Shown here in pieces: positions 13,953 to 21,923 of a stretch of 38,640 nt of DNA. Every line of letters starts with the position of its first letter. Within the stretch, counting starts at the first letter, position 1. The notes below the pieces were generated by a model. The model searched no databases. It worked only from the letters and a program-made list of their open reading frames with translations, and was not told where the DNA came from. The position numbers were made by a program, and so were the translations under genes. This DNA is from a virus (Duplodnaviria; Heunggongvirae; Uroviricota; Caudoviricetes). The DNA lies in IMG/VR virus record IMGVR_UViG_2724679239_000008. One strand, 5' to 3'.

Positions 13953-16271
13953 TTAAATCCGAAGTGATGTAACTCTTCCGGTCGGTTTGACAATAGGGAA
14001 TTGCTTAACAATAAAATAACCTCCGGCATCATTCGGGTGATCGTTGCCAGATTTTTTATCAGGCTCACCCTTATCATCCCAAACCTGTTGCTCCAGAGAT
14101 TCGGCATATACCGGACAACGCTTCACATTAACTTTATAGCGACGCTCACCATTGGCATTGCAGAACATTGCATTCATTGAGTTAACGCGATCTTTTACTG
14201 GCGGGTTCGAACTGTTTACAACAACGTTAAAACCAGCCTGTTTAAGCTGAGCAATATCCGTCGCACTTGCGTTATTTGATTTTCTGGAATCCCCGGATGC
14301 ATCAGGATAAATATAAATTTCCCTTACTTTCCGATAATCATTCCCGTCATATAACCAGAAGCGCTCTTTAATAATACGGATCATATCTGGTGTATCGTAA
14401 GCGTTAATGATTTCAGTTACTGCGCATGGAAGCCCAAAACGTAACACATGAACGACTCCAGCCATTTTTCCGACGTTAAAATCCATCCCGATATATATCG
14501 GCTCACCTGGCTGTTCCTCTTCTTCGCAATTATTCAGTTTTCGGTCAAACTGATGGTAAACAGTACCACTTGTCAGGTTAGTAAACTGTCCTCGAAGATA
14601 GGCTTTAATCAGCTCTGGAGGATATGACTCAAGGAGCGAGGGAATGTAATCTGCTGGCAAATTCTTTTCATTATCGAAAGTAGATGCCTGTACCAGACCA
14701 TACAGTGAGACCAGCTCTGTTTTTTCACGTACGGCTTTAACAAACTGCTCGTAGACAAATTTGAATCCTTCCGGCGTGGTTGTAACGTCAATACCGTTGC
14801 GAAGTCCATCAACCTTATAACGCATACGCGCAATTATCTTGCGCCACGCTGTTCTGGCTTTTTCCTTCGGCAAAATGTCCAGTTCATCCACCAGCGCATT
14901 ACCAATTTTGAAACCGACGATCGTTTGCGGCTTCTCCATCGATCTGCAGATAGTGGTTCCCCGATACTGACGTCCGTAATAAAAATGAACTTCTTTATTT
15001 CCCTCGTTAATTTTTACATTTAGCCCCCAGTCGGCAGCAACTTCTTCAACTGTGGGATAAAAAATATCGCGAATTTGTGGATATGTAGGCGCAAAATATC
15101 CCTGATTGATACCCGGATGCTCCCAAATCCCCTTACATATGCCACCACACCCAACCCATGTTTTACCGCTATTGTGATGAATCGTCCCATCAGCAGTTAC
15201 GTAGCAGTTATTATCCAATACCTGGAGGTCATAATATGGCTCGGCCTTCTGCAACAGTGTTACACTCAATATGTTGCAGGTTTCGATTAAGGAGTTTGGT
15301 TTTGACGCCTCTTGACCGTTTAATTTGTGATTTAGCACATCCAGAACGTACCGTTTCAGAAGTTGCTTCTCTGGCAGGTTGTGACCGCAGTCATGTTTAT
15401 CGTTGCATATCTCGTTATGGGTTAACGCTGAAACAACACCAGAAGCCTGTCCCTCGAGAAAGTGCGAAGGACAGAATCCTCGCTCTTGCTGATGGTCACC
15501 GTACGTCGGCAGAGATCGCGGCGGAAGTTGGTTGCACAGAAAAGCACGTTCAAAATATTCTCCGAATTCACAACGCCAACCGGCTACCCTGTGGCGCCAG
15601 AAAGGGTGAGTTGAACCCCAGCTTTCGTGGTGGTCGAATTGTTGATCTGGATGGATATGCCGTTGTTCCAGCGCCTGCTGACCATCCATATATGCGCAGA
15701 ACAGGCATGATGTTTGAACATCGTTTGATCGCTGAAAAGAAGCTGGGGCGTTATCTGCTGCCATCAGAAGTTGTTGACCATATCGACGGGCTTCATCTGC
15801 ATAACACCCCAAGTAATCTGCGAGTTTTTGATTCAAACGTGGATCACCTGCGTGCAACGATTTCGGGACGGCGGCCAAACTGGTCAGAAGAAGGTTTTGC
15901 GAAGATGCAAATACCTTCACCGATTCGTCCAGACTATCCACAGATCGATAGCTACCGTCAGCGCAAAAAACGCGGTGATGTCCGCTTGCTACAAATTCTC
16001 CTCGCTGCGTCACTACTCGGTATAGATTCGCCACACCTTTTGGGTACGCACCACCACTTAGCGAAAGCTCAAATCGATTATTCTCATCCGACCAAGATAA
16101 AACGCGCATTGGTCGAGTTATTTCCTGAATGGGTAGAATCCCATTCTCTGTAACCACAGGCGTACTTCCCCTCAGGCAACCAAAACCAGCAACATAGGCT
16201 TTAAATTTATGAGGCATAGAAAGAAATCGCGCCTGAGGCACATTAAGCGTCGGAGAGATCATCTTCATCAC
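13953..16271 (-). CDS. terminase large subunit precursor containing an intein in the Walker A P-loop
   Basis: 772-aa ORF; N-extein ends KFKAYVAGFG, C-extein starts SGKTWVG (reconstitutes a P-loop); C-extein about 400 aa with nuclease-type C-terminus; coupled to small subunit and portal. Confidence 0.85.
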   Translation of the reverse strand: MMKMISPTLNVPQARFLSMPHKFKAYVAGFGCLRGSTPVVTENGILPIQEITRPMRVLSWSDENNRFELSLSGGAYPKGVANLYRVVTQRGEFVASGHHRVFCADGSYRSVDSLDESVKVFASSQNLLLTSLAAVPKSLHAGDPRLNQKLADYLGCYADEARRYGQQLLMAADNAPASFQRSNDVQTSCLFCAYMDGQQALEQRHIHPDQQFDHHESWGSTHPFWRHRVAGWRCEFGEYFERAFLCNQLPPRSLPTYGDHQQERGFCPSHFLEGQASGVVSALTHNEICNDKHDCGHNLPEKQLLKRYVLDVLNHKLNGQEASKPNSLIETCNILSVTLLQKAEPYYDLQVLDNNCYVTADGTIHHNSGKTWVGCGGICKGIWEHPGINQGYFAPTYPQIRDIFYPTVEEVAADWGLNVKINEGNKEVHFYYGRQYRGTTICRSMEKPQTIVGFKIGNALVDELDILPKEKARTAWRKIIARMRYKVDGLRNGIDVTTTPEGFKFVYEQFVKAVREKTELVSLYGLVQASTFDNEKNLPADYIPSLLESYPPELIKAYLRGQFTNLTSGTVYHQFDRKLNNCEEEEQPGEPIYIGMDFNVGKMAGVVHVLRFGLPCAVTEIINAYDTPDMIRIIKERFWLYDGNDYRKVREIYIYPDASGDSRKSNNASATDIAQLKQAGFNVVVNSSNPPVKDRVNSMNAMFCNANGERRYKVNVKRCPVYAESLEQQVWDDKGEPDKKSGNDHPNDAGGYFIVKQFPIVKPTGRVTSLRI
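15171..16178 (-). other. intein (336 codons) within terminase large subunit
   Basis: starts with Cys (CLRGSTPVVTENGILPIQEI), block B-like GEFVASGHHRVF, ends YDLQVLDNNCYVTADGTIHHN followed by Ser; codon boundaries verified on the sequence (gca at 16176-16178 = Cys, att at 15171-15173 = Asn). Confidence 0.75.
15236..16153 (+). CDS. HNH endonuclease (HNH_3-type with N-terminal HTH segments), encoded antisense inside the intein
   Basis: plus-strand ORF; ATG 15236 preceded by GGAGG (15224-15228); translation verified: GYAVVPAPADHPYMRRTGMMFEHRLIAEKKLGRYLLPSEVVDHIDGLHLHNTPSNLRVF; the track ORF starts further upstream at ATG 15158 without RBS. Confidence 0.65.
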   Translation: MARPSATVLHSICCRFRLRSLVLTPLDRLICDLAHPERTVSEVASLAGCDRSHVYRCISRYGLTLKQHQKPVPRESAKDRILALADGHRTSAEIAAEVGCTEKHVQNILRIHNANRLPCGARKGELNPSFRGGRIVDLDGYAVVPAPADHPYMRRTGMMFEHRLIAEKKLGRYLLPSEVVDHIDGLHLHNTPSNLRVFDSNVDHLRATISGRRPNWSEEGFAKMQIPSPIRPDYPQIDSYRQRKKRGDVRLLQILLAASLLGIDSPHLLGTHHHLAKAQIDYSHPTKIKRALVELFPEWVESHSL

Positions 16272-17196
16272 TCCTCACTCTGGCATCAACCACATTAATA
16301 TTGATCGCCACAGGCTGGGGATGTTCATTACCCTCCACCGTTTCGATCTCTTTGCGCAGTTTCTGGTTTTCCATTCTGCGCCGTTCAATTTCCAGTTCCT
16401 GTAGTCGCTTATCTGCACATAATGCCCCGCCAGCGGAAAGCAAACGCAATAATTCACGCCGGGCGGCAGCTTTATTCTCCAGCAGGATCTCAACGCCGAA
16501 TTTTCCGAGCTTTGCTCCTGCATACAATTGCCGCGCATTTCCATCAAGCAAAGTGGTATCAGCCATATAAAGCTGACCTGTACCTTCTCCACCGCATTTC
16601 GGACAGTCTGGATTTGGTATGGCGCTATCAACGAAACCGAGGCCACCATATTCAGGTTCTGGTTTACCATCTTTGGATGCCTGCGCGGCAGCCCTGTCAA
16701 ATTCTGCTATATCGCGCCACTGATAGAGGTGATTCTCCCCCCAGCAATAGCGACAGTTAACACGGCGAAATTGCGCAAGCTGATTGGGATCAGCCTGCAC
16801 GATGGCCATCAACTGACTCACCAGTAAATCCAGGTCTGCGGTATAGCGTTTCTGGTAATGATTGCGAAAGTAGCTGATGGCACGAAAAACCCTGGCATTT
16901 CTAAGCATACGACTGGCATTGCTGTTTGCTGTCGCACCTTGCCCCTCGTAACCAGCCAGGCGGTATGCCTCTGTCGGCTTTTTCCCCTGAGCAACCAACA
17001 TGGCGAATTTTGCCTGCTGGTCAGAAATACCGAATTCATCGGGGCAGAACGAAATTTCTTCCGTGTCCCCCTCAATCAGGAGTGCATCGGATACAGCCTT
17101 TTTTTTCTGAGATTTTCCGTTTTGCTTTTGCGCAGTCTGCGCAGTTTTTTTTTCGCGCACTTTTTTGCGCAGTTTTGCGCACTTCTGTCTGCGCAT
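16243..17196 (-). CDS. terminase small subunit (Terminase_2-like HTH), start uncertain
   Basis: 317-aa ORF with AKFAMLVAQGKKPTEAYRLAGYEGQGATANSNASRMLRN motif, Cys-rich and coiled-coil C-terminus; overlaps large subunit start; its ATG 17196 has no Shine-Dalgarno. Confidence 0.65.
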   Translation of the reverse strand: MRRQKCAKLRKKVREKKTAQTAQKQNGKSQKKKAVSDALLIEGDTEEISFCPDEFGISDQQAKFAMLVAQGKKPTEAYRLAGYEGQGATANSNASRMLRNARVFRAISYFRNHYQKRYTADLDLLVSQLMAIVQADPNQLAQFRRVNCRYCWGENHLYQWRDIAEFDRAAAQASKDGKPEPEYGGLGFVDSAIPNPDCPKCGGEGTGQLYMADTTLLDGNARQLYAGAKLGKFGVEILLENKAAARRELLRLLSAGGALCADKRLQELEIERRRMENQKLRKEIETVEGNEHPQPVAININVVDARVRSDEDDLSDA

Positions 17197-17338
17197 TTTT
17201 CGGAGGTTTTTTGATGTAACGACGGGCTGTTGCGTAATTCAGTCCCTTTGCTTCACACCACGCCACCGGAGACACACCGGAGCGGGTGTATTCAGCAATA
17301 TATTCCTGCTGCAACGTCCCCCAGTCCGGTCTGCTCAT
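17072..17338 (-). CDS. small HTH protein, or frameshifted N-terminal part of the terminase small subunit
   Basis: 88-aa ORF with AGGA RBS, HTH-like YIAEYTRSGVSPVAWCEAKGLNYATARRYIK, lysine-rich tail; overlaps the next ORF by 125 nt in another frame. Confidence 0.4.
   Translation of the reverse strand: MSRPDWGTLQQEYIAEYTRSGVSPVAWCEAKGLNYATARRYIKKPPKNAQTEVRKTAQKSARKKNCADCAKAKRKISEKKGCIRCTPD
17129..17195. repeat. six spaced TGCGCA/CGCGCA motifs separated by T-runs (candidate pac or terminase-binding repeats)
   Basis: motif starts at 17129, 17138, 17154, 17166, 17176, 17190; T8 at 17099-17106 and T9 at 17145-17153. Confidence 0.35.
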
Positions 17339-17341
17339 CAG

Positions 17342-17593
17342 TTAGTCCTGATTTTTATCCACCCTGAGTAATGCACGCAGAGCAAAGGCATCCCCTTTTC
17401 TGGCAAGCTTAAACAATGCCGCCCGTAGCTCGGCTTCACCTTTCGCTCTGCCCTTACGGATGGACGCATAAAAATTTGTCATTGCTTCCCGATTTTCTTT
17501 CAGTCTGTTCAGATCAACATCCAGAACGTCAGCGATTTGTTGTGCAGTCATCCGGCACGCTGCCAGAGACTCGACTTTCGAATACGGAATCAT
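17342..17593 (-). CDS. hypothetical small DNA-binding protein
   Basis: 83-aa ORF with GGGGGTGA RBS, HTH-like CRMTAQQIADVLDVDLNRL. Confidence 0.45.
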   Translation of the reverse strand: MIPYSKVESLAACRMTAQQIADVLDVDLNRLKENREAMTNFYASIRKGRAKGEAELRAALFKLARKGDAFALRALLRVDKNQD

Positions 17594-17972
17594 TTATCAC
17601 CCCCATTGATATGCAGGGTGTCTTCTTCCTGTATTTTTCGTGAAGGATTTTTACTGCAGCGTTGTTCCAGGTGACCTGATGGTGAATGCGTTTATGGCTG
17701 GCGCCCATCAGTGAGATTTTTACGCACGACGGCGCATACATGACGGAGTAAAAACTTTTAACGTAGGTGCCGGAATCCAGATACAGTTCGGTCATTCCGC
17801 CGCTGTTTTTCTGCGTTTGCTTCTGCCCTAACTGGACAGCGCCAATCGTCAAAAACAATTCACCACGACGACCGAGATTCGTGTATGTATTCACATCCTC
17901 GTTAATACGCCCCATAAATGAGAATGGTCGGTCAACAGAACAAATAAAGCTGTTCATTGCTTTGCGTTTCAC
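17529..17972 (-). CDS. hypothetical protein; probable C-terminal part of a gene split at a G9 tract
   Basis: 147-aa frame starting at GTG with no RBS, continuous with upstream ORF after a 1-nt frame change. Confidence 0.4.
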   Translation of the reverse strand: MKRKAMNSFICSVDRPFSFMGRINEDVNTYTNLGRRGELFLTIGAVQLGQKQTQKNSGGMTELYLDSGTYVKSFYSVMYAPSCVKISLMGASHKRIHHQVTWNNAAVKILHEKYRKKTPCISMGVINDSVFESRVSGSVPDDCTTNR

Positions 17973-17994
17973 CCATGCAGCATGACCACCATTA

Positions 17995-18462
17995 TCACCA
18001 AGAAAGTCCCCCCCCCTGCGCCATAGCGATGGAAAGCGCAGGAATTGATTCGTAATACGCCAGCATTTCAGAAAGGATCGAGTCCAGTTTCCTTATCGGA
18101 AAATAAGCCTGGTCATAGTTGCGATCTACCCGAAACTGAAACTCGTGATAGTCGTCATCAAGCTGGATGTAGTATTTACACCCAACCTTTTTTGCCAGGC
18201 CCAGACAGGCATTCCTGGCATAAAAGATTGAACGTCGATCGCCAAAGTTGTCGGCTTCATCAAAACGACTGGCGATATCGGCTTTGGAAAACACCAGCAC
18301 CTGTTCACCAAATTCTGCTACGTACTGATGCCGGGTTTTATCTTCATCATCAACAACGATAAAAATTTTCCCGGTATAGCCAGCACGACGCAACGTCCGG
18401 TAAGTCAGAACTTTGTCCGGTCGCCCGTGAGTCAGAATAAAGGCGCAAAAATCATCACGCAT
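17995..18462 (-). CDS. hypothetical protein with DxD-like motifs; N-terminal part of split gene
   Basis: start at ATG 18462 (MRDDFCAF) with GAGGAGGA RBS; IVVDDED and QLDDDY motifs; ends three codons after a G9 run. Confidence 0.5.
   Translation of the reverse strand: MRDDFCAFILTHGRPDKVLTYRTLRRAGYTGKIFIVVDDEDKTRHQYVAEFGEQVLVFSKADIASRFDEADNFGDRRSIFYARNACLGLAKKVGCKYYIQLDDDYHEFQFRVDRNYDQAYFPIRKLDSILSEMLAYYESIPALSIAMAQGGGLSW
18008..18016. repeat. homopolymer tract (C9 on plus, G9 in coding sense)
   Basis: counted directly in sequence; lies at the junction of the two ORF fragments. Confidence 0.9.
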
Positions 18463-18463
18463 A

Positions 18464-19243
18464 TTACTCCTCCTCGCCATGCATGATCTCCACCATGCGC
18501 TGCGTCATCCTGACAAACCCATTTTCAATTGCCTGCTGATAATCAATGATCACCAGAGCCGATTCCTCAAAAAAGCTCTGAATTTCAGCGGGGGCGTGAG
18601 CGTAATAGTCCGCGATTCTGCTGAAATTAAACACCGTGTGACGTTCTGCCGCGCACAGAAGGAATTTCTCAATATCAGGATCAAGGGACACCGAACGTAT
18701 CCGGCTGATCAGCTCCTGAGTTTTCGTATCGTCGTACAGTTCACAGATATCCGGTTTATCGCCTGACGGCTCATAAACAGGCGTATCAATTTTCGTCGTA
18801 TACGGCTCCTCCTCATTTCCTGTACCAGGCAAAATATCCGTCAACAGTTCATCAATTTCTGTCGGGCTGAAGCCTGTCAGGGAGACATCAAAATCAGCAT
18901 TAATTAGGTCCGACAGCTCCATCCGTAACAGATCTTCATCCCAGCCAGCATTCATCGGCAGGCGATTATCTGCCAGACGGTACGCCTTTTTCTGATCATC
19001 CGTCAGACCAGACAGAACGATGACCGGAACGAAATCCATTTTGAGCACTTCAGCCGCCATAACGCGACCGTGACCCGCAATAACTTCGCCCTTTTCATCA
19101 ATCAGCACCGGATTAGTCCAGCCAAATTGCTTAATGCTTTCTACCAGTTGCGTCACCTGCTCAGGGCTGTGTGTCCTGGCATTGTGTGCATACAGAGACA
19201 GCTCTTGTAACGGGCGATAGACGATCTTCAATTTCTCGCTCAT
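18464..19243 (-). CDS. ParB-like nuclease domain protein
   Basis: 259-aa ORF with ParB N-terminal-type motifs (YAHNARTH, VIAGHGRVMAA); GAGG RBS. Confidence 0.7.
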   Translation of the reverse strand: MSEKLKIVYRPLQELSLYAHNARTHSPEQVTQLVESIKQFGWTNPVLIDEKGEVIAGHGRVMAAEVLKMDFVPVIVLSGLTDDQKKAYRLADNRLPMNAGWDEDLLRMELSDLINADFDVSLTGFSPTEIDELLTDILPGTGNEEEPYTTKIDTPVYEPSGDKPDICELYDDTKTQELISRIRSVSLDPDIEKFLLCAAERHTVFNFSRIADYYAHAPAEIQSFFEESALVIIDYQQAIENGFVRMTQRMVEIMHGEEE

Positions 19244-19528
19244 ACAGCCTCGCTTTATTAATAAAAAAGCCCGCTATCGGCCAGTGCGCAGGGTGCGCGG
19301 CGGGTGCAGATAACGAGCTTTGACATTATCGAAGCCCCCTATCAAAGGAGCTTCTGTAATGTCAGTCCAGAACGAACGTAACCTTTGTATTTGTCGCTCG
19401 CCGTACAAGACGCGCTGCTTCGCGTTGCATTTCATCGATAACTTTTGGCGTCATCGGCTAATGCGCATATTTACATTCAATCACTGCAAAAAATCCCGTT
19501 CATCGTTTCGCTGTCTGGTGGGATAACT

Positions 19529-19873
19529 TCAACGTTTAATCGTGCCATTGGTTTGTGCTGCCCTGTTTTTCTCAAAAGTCCTGATATCAGCCTTATCCCT
19601 GTTGCACTGTGCTAACGCTGACAACAATGCAACATTCAGGTTAAGGCTTGCCCCCCACGTAAACGGGTCGGGTAAATCTGGCTGGGGTGTTTCAGCCGTC
19701 AGACTGGCTGGTAACGGAACCACCGGCACCGACACGTATACCGTTCGCGTATTCGTGCAACCGCTTAACTGCGCCAGAAGGAACGATACGAACAGCGCAA
19801 TCATCATCCGCAACAGCCACTTTGATATCTTTCTGGATTCTCTGTGACTCCAGTGCGATCTGCTGTTTTGCAT
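19529..19873 (-). CDS. o-spanin (Rz1-like outer membrane lipoprotein); real start probably near 19807
   Basis: lipobox LAQLSGC after hydrophobic stretch, Pro-rich mature part; overlaps Rz 3' end in another frame. Confidence 0.55.
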   Translation of the reverse strand: MQNSRSHWSHRESRKISKWLLRMMIALFVSFLLAQLSGCTNTRTVYVSVPVVPLPASLTAETPQPDLPDPFTWGASLNLNVALLSALAQCNRDKADIRTFEKNRAAQTNGTIKR

Positions 19874-20084
19874 GCTGGTTAGCCTCTATAACTGTGTTGA
19901 TGATTTGCAGTGATTGCAGGACGTTACGGGTAATGGCTGTTGCTGATTCAGCATTTCGTACAGCCTCATCAGCGCGCTCCTTTTCGTGTTGATATTTGCT
20001 GTAGTAATGCCCGGCATACCAGATAAAAGAACCGATGACGGTAACAAAGAAGGCAACAATAACCAGCTTATATCTCAGCTTCAT
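19692..20084 (-). CDS. i-spanin (Rz-like)
   Basis: 130-aa ORF with N-terminal transmembrane helix then coiled-coil, directly after endolysin. Confidence 0.6.
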   Translation of the reverse strand: MKLRYKLVIVAFFVTVIGSFIWYAGHYYSKYQHEKERADEAVRNAESATAITRNVLQSLQIINTVIEANQHAKQQIALESQRIQKDIKVAVADDDCAVRIVPSGAVKRLHEYANGIRVGAGGSVTSQSDG

Positions 20085-20544
20085 TTACCACCCCACCAGC
20101 TTCTTTAAATCGGGCAATCAGGTCACCGATTCTATGTTCATACTGACCGTAACCAGCGCCCGGCAACGAAGCCCAGATATTGCTGCAACGGTCGATTGCC
20201 TGACGAATATCGCCGCGGTCAATCATCGGTAATGCGCCACGCTCTTTAATCTGCTGCAGCGCTACAGCATCCTGACTTTCTGGAGAAAAATCTTTCAGGC
20301 CAAGTTGCTTGCGGTAGGCATCCCACCAGCGTGAAAGAAGCTGGTAACGTCCGGCGGCTGTTGATTTGAGTTTCGGATTTAGCGTGACAAGTTTGCGGGG
20401 GTGATCGGAGTAATCAGTGAACAGTTCGCCACCGACAATAACATCATAACCGTGATTTCTGGTTTTCTGCCGTCCGTTATCCGTTCCTTCTGACCATGCC
20501 ACCATATCAAGGAAAGCTTTACGCTGGGAATTCAGTGTCTGCAT
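20068..20544 (-). CDS. R: endolysin, lambda R-type lytic transglycosylase
   Basis: 158-aa ORF recognised as near-identical to lambda R (QRKAFLDMVAWSEGTDNGRQKTRNHGYDVIVGGELFTDYSDHPRKLVTLNPKLKST). Confidence 0.9.
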   Translation of the reverse strand: MQTLNSQRKAFLDMVAWSEGTDNGRQKTRNHGYDVIVGGELFTDYSDHPRKLVTLNPKLKSTAAGRYQLLSRWWDAYRKQLGLKDFSPESQDAVALQQIKERGALPMIDRGDIRQAIDRCSNIWASLPGAGYGQYEHRIGDLIARFKEAGGVVNEAEI

Positions 20545-20547
20545 TAA

Positions 20548-20883
20548 TTACTCCTTATGGGCACCAAACTTGTTACCGATGACCCTCATTGCCGCACCAC
20601 GAATAGCATCAACACCAATCAGCCCCACCCCACCACCAATGGCAACAGAAAGTGATTTAGGCCATCCGACATACTCAAGCGCGGATGCAAAAGTCAACGT
20701 CAGAGCACCACAGAGCAAAATCTCAAGCGTTTTTCGTTTCCAGCCCCCACCACCGCCAAAATAGGCGATGCGCAAACCAGCCATAACGATCGACATAATC
20801 ACTGCACCCAGCGGTGTATCTCCACGCCACCAGCTCTGAAACAACTCCAGCCAGTCCGGCCAGGTATTTGGGTTATGAGGCAT
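20548..20883 (-). CDS. putative holin
   Basis: three predicted TM segments, charged C-terminus, immediately upstream of endolysin; start at ATG 20883 with GAGGTGA upstream (track start 20907 lacks RBS; dual start possible). Confidence 0.6.
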   Translation of the reverse strand: MPHNPNTWPDWLELFQSWWRGDTPLGAVIMSIVMAGLRIAYFGGGGGWKRKTLEILLCGALTLTFASALEYVGWPKSLSVAIGGGVGLIGVDAIRGAAMRVIGNKFGAHKE

Positions 20884-21004
20884 TTCATCATCTCTCACCT
20901 CGCACATATCGCGGGTGCAAATTGAGGGAATAAAAAATCCCCGAATATTCCGGGAGCGGAAACGGGGAAAGGCGTTGCACTAAATGGGCCTGTCTGCGGC
21001 CTTA

Positions 21005-21031
21005 AATAAAAAACCCCGGCAAATGCCGAGG
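21005..21031 (-). terminator. putative rho-independent terminator in late leader
   Basis: minus-sense CCUCGG-CAUUUG-CCGGGG followed by UUUUUUAUUU. Confidence 0.4.
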
Positions 21032-21252
21032 TCAGTTAATCGTTGCCGCTGTTAGTGCCGCGGTGCACTATCTCTTTATCAGGCTACTTACGCGTTAAAA
21101 CGGGTGCCAACCGTAACTCAGTGATGCTTTACGCTTCCTCTCCTTCACTACGTCGCCATGGGAGCCCGACCAGATTAACGCTGTCGTCACGTTGCCAAAA
21201 TATGGCATCCAATGAATTCTTTTTATTTAGCTATTTCATTTTTCTATCCGTC

Positions 21253-21281
21253 AGAAACAACAAAACCCGCTCGGTGGCGGG
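21253..21281 (-). terminator. tR'-like terminator downstream of Q
   Basis: minus-sense CCCGC-CACCGA-GCGGG followed by UUUUGUUGUUUCU, about 100 nt downstream of Q stop. Confidence 0.5.
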
Positions 21282-21380
21282 TTCTATTAAAGTTCAATTG
21301 CACTTGGTTCGCCTCGCGATACAGCTTTGCGAAGCGTAGCTGAATTGAATCAGTTTATTGGCAAAAATGCAATAACTTTT

Positions 21381-21923
21381 TTATTGGCTTTCTCCGCATA
21401 ACGCTAATTTCATTGGTATATACAGAATGTGCTCAGCAACACTCAACCATGCGTCAATGCGATTTCTGCAAGTTTTCAAGCTCCAGCCAGGGCGATACTC
21501 ATTTAACTGTTGTGCCATTTTCAGCTTACTCATCCCCCGTCCCTCATACCGTTGTCGAAGGACGCTAATCAATCCCGGATGTTCTGTCAGCACCTCACTT
21601 ATAACCCGATCAATACATAACGCCTCTGCATCAGTACAATGCGCCAGCCAGCTCTTTTGCTTCCCGTTGATCATCTCACGTAAAAATGCTTCCAGCTCCG
21701 GCTTCTCTATTCCCGCTTTTTTAATCCTGCGCAGGGCTTCATTGACGGCTGTTTTCGTCAATTTTTTGGATGCCAGCAACTGGTTAAACATATTTCCCAT
21801 CTTACCGCCGCCAATATACGACCAGCGCCCCCACATGCGCAGTTTTCCCTGAATCCAGACACTTTCCAGCGTGGTGAGACGAAGGTGTTCCCCGCTTTTG
21901 CCTGTATTTGTTGGGTAAATCAT
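21381..21923 (-). CDS. Q: late antiterminator Q-like protein
   Basis: 180-aa ORF directly upstream of late leader and lysis genes; Q-family size and position. Confidence 0.65.
   Translation of the reverse strand: MIYPTNTGKSGEHLRLTTLESVWIQGKLRMWGRWSYIGGGKMGNMFNQLLASKKLTKTAVNEALRRIKKAGIEKPELEAFLREMINGKQKSWLAHCTDAEALCIDRVISEVLTEHPGLISVLRQRYEGRGMSKLKMAQQLNEYRPGWSLKTCRNRIDAWLSVAEHILYIPMKLALCGESQ

What the first reader, a model, noticed from the sequence alone, without database searches (positions are those of the whole stretch)
17995..18480. G9 homopolymer tract splits a roughly 315-codon gene downstream of the ParB-like nuclease gene
The ORF starting at 18462 ends three codons after a run of nine G (plus-strand C9 at 18008..18016). 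Reading past the tract with one nucleotide removed continues without stop into the 147-codon frame 17529..17972, which itself has only a GTG start and no RBS. This is the signature of either a phase-variable gene switched by slipped-strand mispairing, a recent pseudogene, or a homopolymer sequencing error. The N-terminal part has DxD-like motifs (IVVDDED, QLDDDY) that could indicate a nucleotide-sugar or nucleotide transferase.
Basis: seen in the sequence. Interest (0 to 1): 0.5.

Follow-up and report, generated by a model that had tools for sequence, protein, structure and literature searches.

The report
Frameshifted prophage glycosyltransferase gene (G9 slip)
A run of nine G's has knocked a prophage sugar-transferase gene out of frame by one base; the extra G is a real, inherited slippage mutation at an accidental hot spot, not an evolved on/off switch and probably not a sequencing error, so the finding is largely ordinary.

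Summary
A G9 run (minus strand, 18016..18008) splits one gene (18462..17529). Removing one G gives a 310-aa protein that matches, residue for residue, a protein found on 104 public contigs. It belongs to the TAGT / "GREB1-related" GT-A glycosyltransferase family (Pfam PF20691, E 2.8e-35, aligned across the tract). The tract encodes a conserved Q-G-G-D motif (CAG GGN GGN GAY). In 105 of 123 relatives it is interrupted (GGGCGGGG), and only this sub-lineage has a pure G8. G9 is not a one-off error: its exact truncated product occurs in three other independent read sets, and a G7 product occurs in one. G8 still dominates, with OFF alleles at roughly 4-7%. The gene lies in the silent, Q-dependent late operon of a Rac-type prophage at ttcA in a non-E. 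coli Escherichia, probably E. albertii. The neighbouring small-terminase gene carries a second +1 homopolymer frameshift (A9), seen only in this assembly. Best reading: neutral slippage decay of a dispensable late gene. An evolved phase switch is not supported, but it cannot be excluded without reads. The more interesting lead is a ParB-like + glycosyltransferase pair conserved next to terminase genes from archaeal viruses to coliphages, with no TET partner and no known substrate.

The parts
17529..18462 (-). Whole frameshifted gene for a TAGT-family (GREB1-related) GT-A glycosyltransferase. It is 310 aa when the tract is G8.
   Evidence: Pfam PF20691 E 2.8e-35 over residues 8-222; PHROG 842 E 1.9e-99 over residues 1-295. 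The repaired product is identical to P0016, found on 104 contigs. The model has a GT-A fold and all top PDB matches are GT-A enzymes.
17995..18462 (-). N-terminal fragment as actually encoded: 155 aa ending ...AMAQGGGLSW*. It holds R14 and the DDD (102-104) motif.
   Evidence: The exact product P0001 is in NCBI and Logan data.
18008..18016 (-). G9 homopolymer, one base longer than the in-frame G8. It overlies the codons of the conserved Q149-G150-G151-D152 motif.
   Evidence: Conservation of the motif. Relatives carry GGGCGGGG, GGGGGGAG or G8.
17529..18007 (-). C-terminal part of the gene, now out of frame. It holds the conserved N187-E188-D189 motif, R166/K167 and H261/W265. The listed ORF 17972..17529 (GTG start, no Shine-Dalgarno) is its open remainder.
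   Evidence: Its last ~65 nt overlap the next ORF, and distant homologues end at about residue 280.
18464..19243 (-). ParB/Srx-like protein (259 aa), the conserved upstream partner of the glycosyltransferase.
   Evidence: PHROG 620 E 1e-86; Pfam ParB_N 24.7 bits; 32% identity over 257 aa to Nocardia phage NTR1 Orf1, which sits in the same position. The pairing recurs.
17342..17593 (-). Small conserved ORF (83 aa as listed) between the glycosyltransferase and terS.
   Evidence: PHROG 309 (small terminase) E 8e-22, partial match. Annotated as a hypothetical protein in the relatives.
16243..17338 (-). Small terminase gene, 1096 nt and also frameshifted (88-aa and 317-aa ORFs). With A8 it encodes 364 aa, collinear with the SPF_0923 protein.
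   Evidence: The 317-aa product P0031 is on a single NCBI contig only.
17145..17153 (-). A9 run on the coding strand (T9 on plus), one base longer than in the close relatives L127, L129, L089, L046 and L026, which have A8.
21012..21033 (-). Terminator-like hairpin downstream of the Q-like antiterminator gene (21923..21381). It marks the start of the late transcript that runs through the lysis genes, ParB, the GT and the terminase genes.
   Evidence: terminator scan, and no sigma-70-like promoter in 16000-21500 against 6.6 expected. DUF1133 / Phage_antitermQ. That this is one late operon is an inference from lambdoid gene organisation.

Best explanation
The window carries a Rac-type lambdoid prophage integrated at ttcA in a non-E. 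coli Escherichia, probably E. albertii. Its late operon encodes a ParB-like protein followed by a TAGT-family GT-A glycosyltransferase, just upstream of the terminase genes. The enzyme has a conserved Q-G-G-D motif whose codons (CAG GGN GGN GAY) are G-rich of necessity. In this sub-lineage a synonymous GGC-to-GGG change produced an uninterrupted G8, which is prone to replication slippage. In this prophage the run gained one G, so translation stops after 155 residues, ahead of the conserved N-E-D motif and the whole C-terminal half. The enzyme is therefore predicted to be inactive. Late genes are silent in a lysogen, so such a slip is neutral while the prophage is resident, and it is inherited. 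Shown here: the tract, the fusion, the family assignment, the in-frame state of relatives, recurrence of G9 in independent data sets, and G7/G8/G9 polymorphism. Inferred: loss of activity, neutrality, late-operon expression, and slippage as the mutational mechanism.
For: Tract and frames. Family and single-gene status. The motif under the tract is conserved (Q149, G151, D152 invariant; G150 at 90% or more), and N187/D189 lie downstream of the shift. Of 123 relatives, all are in frame and 105 are interrupted. The only viral-contig hits with G7 or longer are three G8 loci. The E. coli genomes listed span 150 nt for the 151-nt query. The closest relatives, L016 and L089 (99.6-99.7% identical), differ in this gene by the single extra G plus 2-3 SNPs. 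The exact G9 product occurs in GCA_001515005.1 and in Logan SRR29118730, SRR35649717 and ERR12370681, with G9 read directly in each. A G7 product occurs on one contig and the G8 product on 104. The source assembly has no small indels against a sister genome over 16 kb. The gene looks dispensable: homologues are split or reduced to remnants in isolated L. delbrueckii phages, and another frameshift allele, P0002, exists in E. coli-type sequences. Two G9 carriers also have terS broken at A-runs, which fits prophage decay.
Against: G9 sits on three different flank haplotypes, each resembling a different G8 locus. Together with the G7 allele, this means the tract mutates repeatedly or the allele has persisted through recombination, and either is also what a low-rate switch would look like. 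One G9 carrier (L127) has an otherwise intact packaging module, so the prophage is not obviously decaying there. No read-level data were available. Loss of activity is inferred from motif positions, not measured.
Confidence: 0.65

Rival explanations
1. The G8/G9 tract is a functional contingency switch. Slipped-strand mispairing turns the ParB-partnered glycosyltransferase ON (G8, G11) or OFF (G7, G9, G10), so a lysogen population releases a mixture of modified and unmodified progeny. This would be bet-hedging against modification-dependent and modification-sensitive host defences.
For: Tract lengths G7, G8 and G9 all occur on one protein haplotype. G9 is found on three flank backgrounds. G9 alleles show no further decay, differing from G8 alleles by only 0-2 SNPs. 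Phase-variable DNA-modification genes and poly-G tracts linked to phage-host conflict are known in other bacteria (PMC4889913, PMC6625227).
Against: The tract is not conserved: 105 of 123 relatives carry an interrupted GGGCGGGG and others carry GGGAGGGG or GGGGGGAG. The G-richness is explained by the conserved QGGD motif. OFF alleles are only about 4-7% of this haplotype, and none were seen among about 120 viral contigs or the E. coli genomes examined. The neighbouring essential terS gene shows the same kind of homopolymer slips, which argues for generic slippage rather than a dedicated switch. The E. coli examples in the phase-variation review are recombinase- or methylation-based, and evolved localised hypermutation is the defining criterion (PMC11868660). 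From my own knowledge, G8 runs in mismatch-repair-proficient Escherichia slip at rates near or below the usual phase-variation range.
Confidence: 0.12
2. G9 is a homopolymer sequencing or assembly error, and the real sequence is G8 with an intact gene.
For: The only two 9-nt homopolymers in the window are both one base longer than in relatives and both break genes. The terS A9 is found in this assembly alone, while the near-identical L127 has A8. Long G runs are error-prone on several platforms (my own knowledge).
Against: The exact G9 product and G9 DNA are present in three independent Logan assemblies of other runs. Many assemblies of the same haplotype give G8 (104 contigs), so the error would have to be sporadic yet reach consensus four times. 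The source assembly has no small indels over 16 kb compared with a 99.5-99.6% identical sister genome, and its A8/T8 runs at 2130 and 17099 agree with MEI003.
Confidence: 0.08
3. The frameshift is leaky by design or by accident. RNA polymerase slippage on the G9 run, or +1 ribosomal slippage of tRNA-Gly on GGG-G before the rare GGA codon, restores the frame in a fraction of products, so the G9 allele still makes a low level of full-length enzyme.
For: The frame needed after the run is +1, and the run is followed by GGA, which I recall as a rare Gly codon in Escherichia. This is read from the sequence. The G9 allele persists without further mutations. From my own knowledge, rescue of homopolymer frameshifts by transcriptional slippage is established for long A/T runs in bacteria.
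Against: No stimulatory element was identified: there is no internal Shine-Dalgarno or stop-codon context like that of prfB. Most relatives need no recoding. From my own knowledge, slippage on G/C runs of 9 by E. coli RNA polymerase is poorly documented. Nothing here measures expression.
Confidence: 0.05

Closest known systems
TAGT (TET/JBP-associated glycosyltransferase, Pfam PF20691), the clade that also contains kinetoplastid base-J glucosyltransferase and the GREB1 GT domain
   Same: Strong profile match (122.5 bits against a 27.5 cut-off). GT-A fold. Candidate R...DDD...ED signature at R14, D102-104 and E188-D189, matching the motif described for phage GT-A DNA glycosyltransferases (10.1101/2023.12.21.572611). 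A ParB-like neighbour, as reported for many such clusters.
   Different: There is no TET/5mYOX, cytosine-C5 methyltransferase or thymidylate-synthase-type hydroxymethylase in the prophage or in any sampled homologous neighbourhood. So the usual acceptor (5hmC or 5hmU) has no evident source. In this window the gene is also frameshifted.
T2/T6 beta-glucosyl-HMC alpha-glucosyltransferase, which gives PHROG 842 its label
   Same: Placed in the same PHROG by remote-homology clustering. T6-like phages encode a PF20691 protein thought to add the second glucose to glucosyl-hmC (PMC13390438).
   Different: No T-even phage appears among the tblastn hits at E<=1e-3; the nearest T4-like hits (Aeromonas phage 65) are about 23% identical. 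The host phage is a temperate lambdoid with, as far as the window shows, ordinary cytosine. Transferring the functional name is not justified.
ParB-dependent phage DNA-modifying enzymes (ParB-activated thymine dioxygenases, PNAS 2026, PMC13229309)
   Same: A short ParB-like protein (N-terminal NTP-binding-type domain plus a conserved C-terminal region, no recognisable HTH domain in Pfam) is encoded immediately upstream of a DNA-modification-family enzyme and is inherited with it.
   Different: The partner here is a glycosyltransferase, not a dioxygenase. In that paper, GT-associated dioxygenases belonged to the ParB-independent subclass. No interaction or activation has been tested for ParB and GT.
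Simple-sequence-repeat contingency loci, such as poly-G phase-variable restriction-modification and surface genes of Campylobacter, Neisseria and Haemophilus
   Same: An intragenic G homopolymer whose length sets the reading frame, with one-base length variants among close relatives.
   Different: The tract is short (8), not conserved across orthologues, explained by an amino-acid motif, and overwhelmingly ON. The host genus has mismatch repair (my own knowledge), and its classical phase variation uses other mechanisms.

Membership tests
TAGT / GREB1-related GT-A glycosyltransferase (PF20691) | Profile HMM match above the curated threshold | tested here: met
   122.5 bits against a 27.5-bit cut-off, residues 8-222 of the repaired protein. 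All 120 listed homologues carry PF20691.
TAGT / GREB1-related GT-A glycosyltransferase (PF20691) | GT-A fold | tested here: met
   AlphaFold2 model of the 96%-identical representative P0017: pTM 0.71, with residues 1-150 at high confidence and the C-terminal half at low confidence. All 30 PDB matches with E<=1e-3 are nucleotide-sugar-dependent enzymes of the GT-A type (nearly all glycosyltransferases, plus ADP-glucose pyrophosphorylase), but the matches are weak, TM 0.3-0.45.
TAGT / GREB1-related GT-A glycosyltransferase (PF20691) | Conserved active-site signature R...DDD...ED(Y/F) | tested here: inconclusive
   R14, D102-D104/Y105 and N187-E188-D189 are invariant or nearly so in 34 homologues. 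Their equivalence to the published motif is by order and spacing only, because I had no characterised enzyme to align. In the window as sequenced, the ED motif is out of frame.
TAGT / GREB1-related GT-A glycosyltransferase (PF20691) | Genomic association with a TET/JBP (5mYOX) dioxygenase or another source of hydroxymethyl-pyrimidine | tested here: not met
   None is found in the 38.6-kb prophage window or in phi jlb1, HHTV-2, phiLdb, NTR1 or the metagenome contigs L134-L138.
TAGT / GREB1-related GT-A glycosyltransferase (PF20691) | Transfers a sugar to 5hmC or 5hmU in DNA | not testable with these tools
   Requires nucleoside LC-MS of phage or co-expression DNA.
Phase-variable (contingency) locus by slipped-strand mispairing | Intragenic repeat whose length changes switch the reading frame | tested here: met
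   G8 and G11 are in frame; G7, G9, G10 and G12 truncate.
Phase-variable (contingency) locus by slipped-strand mispairing | Tract-length polymorphism among otherwise near-identical alleles | tested here: met
   G7 (1 contig), G8 (up to 104 contigs) and G9 (3-6 contigs) occur on one protein haplotype; the G10, G11 and G12 products are absent.
Phase-variable (contingency) locus by slipped-strand mispairing | Repeat maintained uninterrupted across orthologues (evolved localised hypermutability) | tested here: not met
   105 of 123 relatives have GGGCGGGG, others have GGGAGGGG, GGGTGGTG or GGGGGGAG, and only 3 have a pure G8. The criterion is taken from PMC11868660.
Phase-variable (contingency) locus by slipped-strand mispairing | High-frequency reversible switching within a clonal population | not testable with these tools
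   Needs raw reads, amplicon sequencing or fluctuation assays.
Sequencing or assembly artefact | Variant not reproducible in independent data sets | tested here: not met
   G9 was read directly in three Logan assemblies of unrelated runs besides the NCBI assembly.
Frameshift pseudogene in a resident prophage | Orthologues intact and collinear, with the lesion a single indel | tested here: met
   A single 1-nt insertion relative to L016, L089, SPF_0923 and MEI003. The repaired product is identical to a widespread protein.

The most novel reading that the evidence does not exclude
The ParB-like + TAGT-like pair, conserved immediately upstream of the terminase genes from an archaeal halovirus to Lactobacillus, Nocardia and Escherichia phages and never accompanied by a TET or hydroxymethylase, may be a self-contained late-acting module. 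In it, ParB would activate a glycosyltransferase on an acceptor other than hydroxymethyl-pyrimidines, such as canonical DNA, DNA at the packaging site, or a packaging protein. In the Escherichia sub-lineage with a pure G8 tract, the module would be toggled at low rate by slippage, giving mixed progeny.
Probability: 0.1. Interest if true: 0.7.

Novelty: new member of a known kind. Interest (0 to 1): 0.3.

Why it matters
The frameshift itself matters little. It is a textbook case of a conserved Gly-Gly motif plus synonymous drift creating a mutational hot spot, and of silent prophage late genes breaking first at their longest homopolymers. It is useful as an annotation warning: the two "hypothetical" ORFs should be annotated as one pseudogene, and the PHROG name "beta-glucosyl-HMC-alpha-glucosyltransferase" should not be transferred. 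The wider value is the lead it exposes. A ParB-like/GT-A glycosyltransferase pair is present in roughly a fifth of complete E. coli genomes (1005 of 5426) and in very distant viruses, always next to the packaging genes, without the enzymes that normally make its substrate. ParB-like proteins have just been shown to activate phage DNA-modifying dioxygenases. Naturally occurring ON (G8) and OFF (G9) alleles of near-identical prophages would be ready-made isogenic material for finding out what this module modifies.

Tried and rejected
1. I recalled that K-12 ydaY, next to ynaK in Rac, was a remnant of this gene. tblastn of the 310-aa protein against MG1655 1421000-1431000 found nothing, so the idea was dropped.

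2. A sequence search of the PDB gave no hit at E<=1.

3. A metagenome-contig scan for tracts of G7 or longer with these flanks gave 0 hits. The genome-contig scan found only two species representatives, both with the interrupted tract.

So I could not directly sample the nucleotide tract in the 104 contigs; that they are mostly pure G8 is inferred from the one exact coder held, L089.

5. The original family paper (Iyer et al. 2013) is not in the library. Three literature queries failed on term syntax.

6. Haplotype analysis within the gene could not separate a single origin of G9 from recurrence, because only 0-3 SNPs are available. The first print-out of that analysis was spoiled by a partial sequence, so only the pairwise counts were used.

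7. I considered independent translation of the C-terminal ORF from GTG 17972 and rejected it. There is no Shine-Dalgarno sequence, and the fragment would lack the nucleotide-binding half of the fold.

8. A mutator or error-prone source assembly was tested and not supported.

Full report
**Observation.** On the minus strand the sequence reads GCG CAG GGG GGG GGA CTT TCT TGG TGA. The nine G's occupy 18016..18008. The ORF that starts at ATG 18462, preceded by GGAGGAG, ends at 17995. Shortening the run to G8, or lengthening it to G11, reads through into the frame listed as ORF 17972..17529 and gives a 310-aa protein. G7, G9, G10 and G12 all truncate. One G9 run is not in itself improbable in this window, since 12 of 100 shuffles contain at least one. 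Its meaning comes from comparison with relatives.

**What the gene is.** The repaired protein matches Pfam PF20691 (TAGT, TET-associated glycosyltransferase) at E 2.8e-35 over residues 8-222, which spans the tract at residues 149-152. It matches PHROG 842 at E 1.9e-99 over residues 1-295. PGAP names the E. coli orthologues "GREB1-related protein". The orthologue in Salmonella phage SPF_0923 is a single 310-aa CDS, and in E. coli MEI003 a single 933-nt CDS. The repaired protein is identical to a protein seen on 104 contigs and labelled Escherichia albertii / Escherichia MULTISPECIES.
- An alignment of 34 homologues (60-96% identity) shows invariant R14, D102-D103-D104-Y105, Q149/G151/D152 (G150 at 90% or more), N187/D189 (E188 at 90% or more), H261 and W265.
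- An AlphaFold2 model (pTM 0.71, confident for residues 1-150) finds essentially only GT-A glycosyltransferases in the PDB, all weakly. No PDB entry matches by sequence.
- The truncated 155-aa product lacks the conserved N-E-D motif and the whole C-terminal half, so I infer it is inactive.

**Where the tract comes from.** The run overlies the conserved Q-G-G-D motif, whose codons are CAG GGN GGN GAY. All 123 relatives recovered with a flank-anchored gapped pattern have the in-frame length. Of these, 105 read GGGCGGGG, and others read GGGAGGGG, GGGTGGTG, GGGCGGAG or GGGGGGAG. Only three have a pure G8. The window's closest relatives, L016 and L089 (99.6-99.7% identical over the gene), have G8 and differ by the single extra G plus 2-3 SNPs. 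The hot spot is therefore a by-product of an amino-acid motif plus one synonymous GGC-to-GGG change in a sub-lineage. It is not a feature of the family.

**Real mutation or artefact?** Exact-sequence look-ups gave the following.
- The 155-aa G9 product occurs in NCBI assembly GCA_001515005.1. Its contig BBWA01000011.1 is 100% identical to the window over 12.5 kb, so it is the source or an identical genome.
- The same product occurs in three Logan re-assemblies of unrelated runs. SRR29118730 differs from the window by 2 SNPs in 11 kb, SRR35649717 by 100 mismatches in 8.2 kb, and ERR12370681 by 13 mismatches in 2.3 kb. I read G9 directly in each.
- The product expected for G7 also exists, on one Logan contig. 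The products for G10, G11, G12 and G5 do not.
- The only held locus that encodes the exact G8 protein has a pure G8 tract. OFF alleles are therefore roughly 4-7% of this haplotype.
- The source assembly shows no small indels over 16 kb compared with a 99.5-99.6% identical sister genome.

A one-off sequencing error is therefore unlikely. G9 is a heritable allele.

**Switch or decay?** G9 lies on three flank haplotypes, each resembling a different G8 locus: L128 resembles L016, L129 resembles L089, and the window and L127 form a third. So the slip either recurred or survived recombination. The gene itself has too few SNPs to decide. The following points argue against an evolved switch.
- The tract is not conserved.
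- Every E. coli genome examined is in frame: the listed full-length matches to the 151-nt query each span 150 nt.
- OFF alleles are a small minority.
- The neighbouring small-terminase gene, which is essential, shows the same kind of event. In the window its A8 run is A9 (17153..17145), which splits a 364-aa gene into 88-aa and 317-aa ORFs. In L128 a different A8 run is A7. The terS A9 product is found only on the NCBI contig, and the near-identical L127 has A8 and an intact terS. That lesion is therefore either very recent or an assembly error.
- The region has no sigma-70-like promoter, and it lies downstream of a Q-like antiterminator gene and a terminator-like hairpin. By lambdoid analogy these are late genes, silent in the lysogen, so slips there are neutral until induction.
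- Homologues of the glycosyltransferase are split or reduced to remnants in several isolated L. delbrueckii phages, which points to dispensability.

I therefore favour neutral slippage decay (0.65) over a functional switch (0.12), an artefact (0.08) or programmed leaky recoding (0.05).

**Context and the more interesting lead.** The window is a Rac-type prophage with recE/recT, sieB, kilR and ydaT homologues and an integrase. It is integrated next to ttcA-dbpA-zntB. Those host genes are only about 87% identical to all 5,404 E. coli genomes, so the host is another Escherichia, probably E. albertii.

The prophage has no TET/JBP dioxygenase, cytosine methyltransferase or hydroxymethylase. Yet the order ParB-like, TAGT-like GT, terminase recurs in the following:
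- L. gasseri phage phi jlb1;
- L. delbrueckii phage phiLdb;
- Nocardia phage NTR1;
- the archaeal virus HHTV-2, where the ParB-GT pair is adjacent and TerL lies about 3 kb further on;
- metagenomic contigs with three different terminase families.

GT identity across these is 40-48%. The ParB partners are homologous over their full length (32% identity, E 6e-36). No T2/T6 enzyme is detectable by tblastn, so the PHROG label should not be read as a function.

[quoted passage not shown] By analogy, ParB may partner the GT here, but that is a hypothesis. The acceptor substrate is unknown. The GREB1 GT domain, for comparison, glycosylates a protein (PMC7968844).

**Verdict.** The gene is a new, inactivated member of a known family, and the event is ordinary. 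Interest is 0.3, mostly for the TET-less ParB-GT module and the natural ON/OFF allele pairs that could be used to study it.

Noticed in passing
window 16243..17338 (minus strand); A9 run at 17145..17153: The small-terminase gene is also split by a +1 homopolymer insertion (A9 against A8 in close relatives). The repaired gene encodes 364 aa, collinear with the SPF_0923 protein. The lesion is seen only in the source NCBI contig. Another G9 carrier (L128) has terS broken at a different A-run, A8 to A7 at window 17099..17106.
   Followed up: yes
window 13953..16271 (minus) and 15158..16153 (plus): The large terminase ORF is 772 aa against 433 aa in SPF_0923. It carries an intein-like insert in the Walker A region (AGFG|CLRGSTPVV...TIHHN|SGKTW), with a sub-threshold Pfam Intein_splicing hit at E 0.005. 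Inside the insert, on the opposite strand, is a 331-aa HTH+HNH_3 endonuclease ORF, which PGAP annotates as a gene in E. coli MEI003 while calling the terminase a pseudogene. Both strands stay open for about 1 kb. The 22 variable sites there are spread evenly over codon positions (9/7/6), whereas 19 of 23 fall on third positions in the TerL-only part.
   Followed up: partly
window 17529..19243 and loci L130-L138: The ParB-like + TAGT-like gene pair, often with overlapping stop and start codons, is conserved immediately upstream of terminase genes in very distant bacterial and archaeal viruses, without any TET or hydroxymethylase. Its substrate and role are unknown.
   Followed up: partly
window 17149..17176 (terS N-terminal K/R-rich region): This is a repeat-rich stretch (TGCGCA(A)n units) that varies in length between relatives: a 28-bp deletion in L016 and L128 and an 8-bp duplication in L089. 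All of these variants preserve the terS frame, unlike the window's A9.
   Followed up: partly
L140 17225..18364 (host DNA beyond the window's right end): The host GGDEF gene (dgcM-like) carries an in-frame 93-bp deletion relative to sister genomes (379 aa against 410 aa). The abg genes found between smrA and ogt in L139 are absent from L140 and L141.
   Followed up: no
window 19243..19529: trkG, which lies between the lysis genes and the ParB-like gene in E. coli Rac, MEI003 and SPF_0923, is absent from this prophage.
   Followed up: no
homologues P0040-P0096: Many E. coli-type clusters are 330-470 aa proteins in which the first ~75% of this glycosyltransferase is fused to tail-fibre, NlpC/P60 or tail-assembly domains. 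This suggests recurrent deletions in defective Rac-type prophages with one end inside this gene.
   Followed up: no
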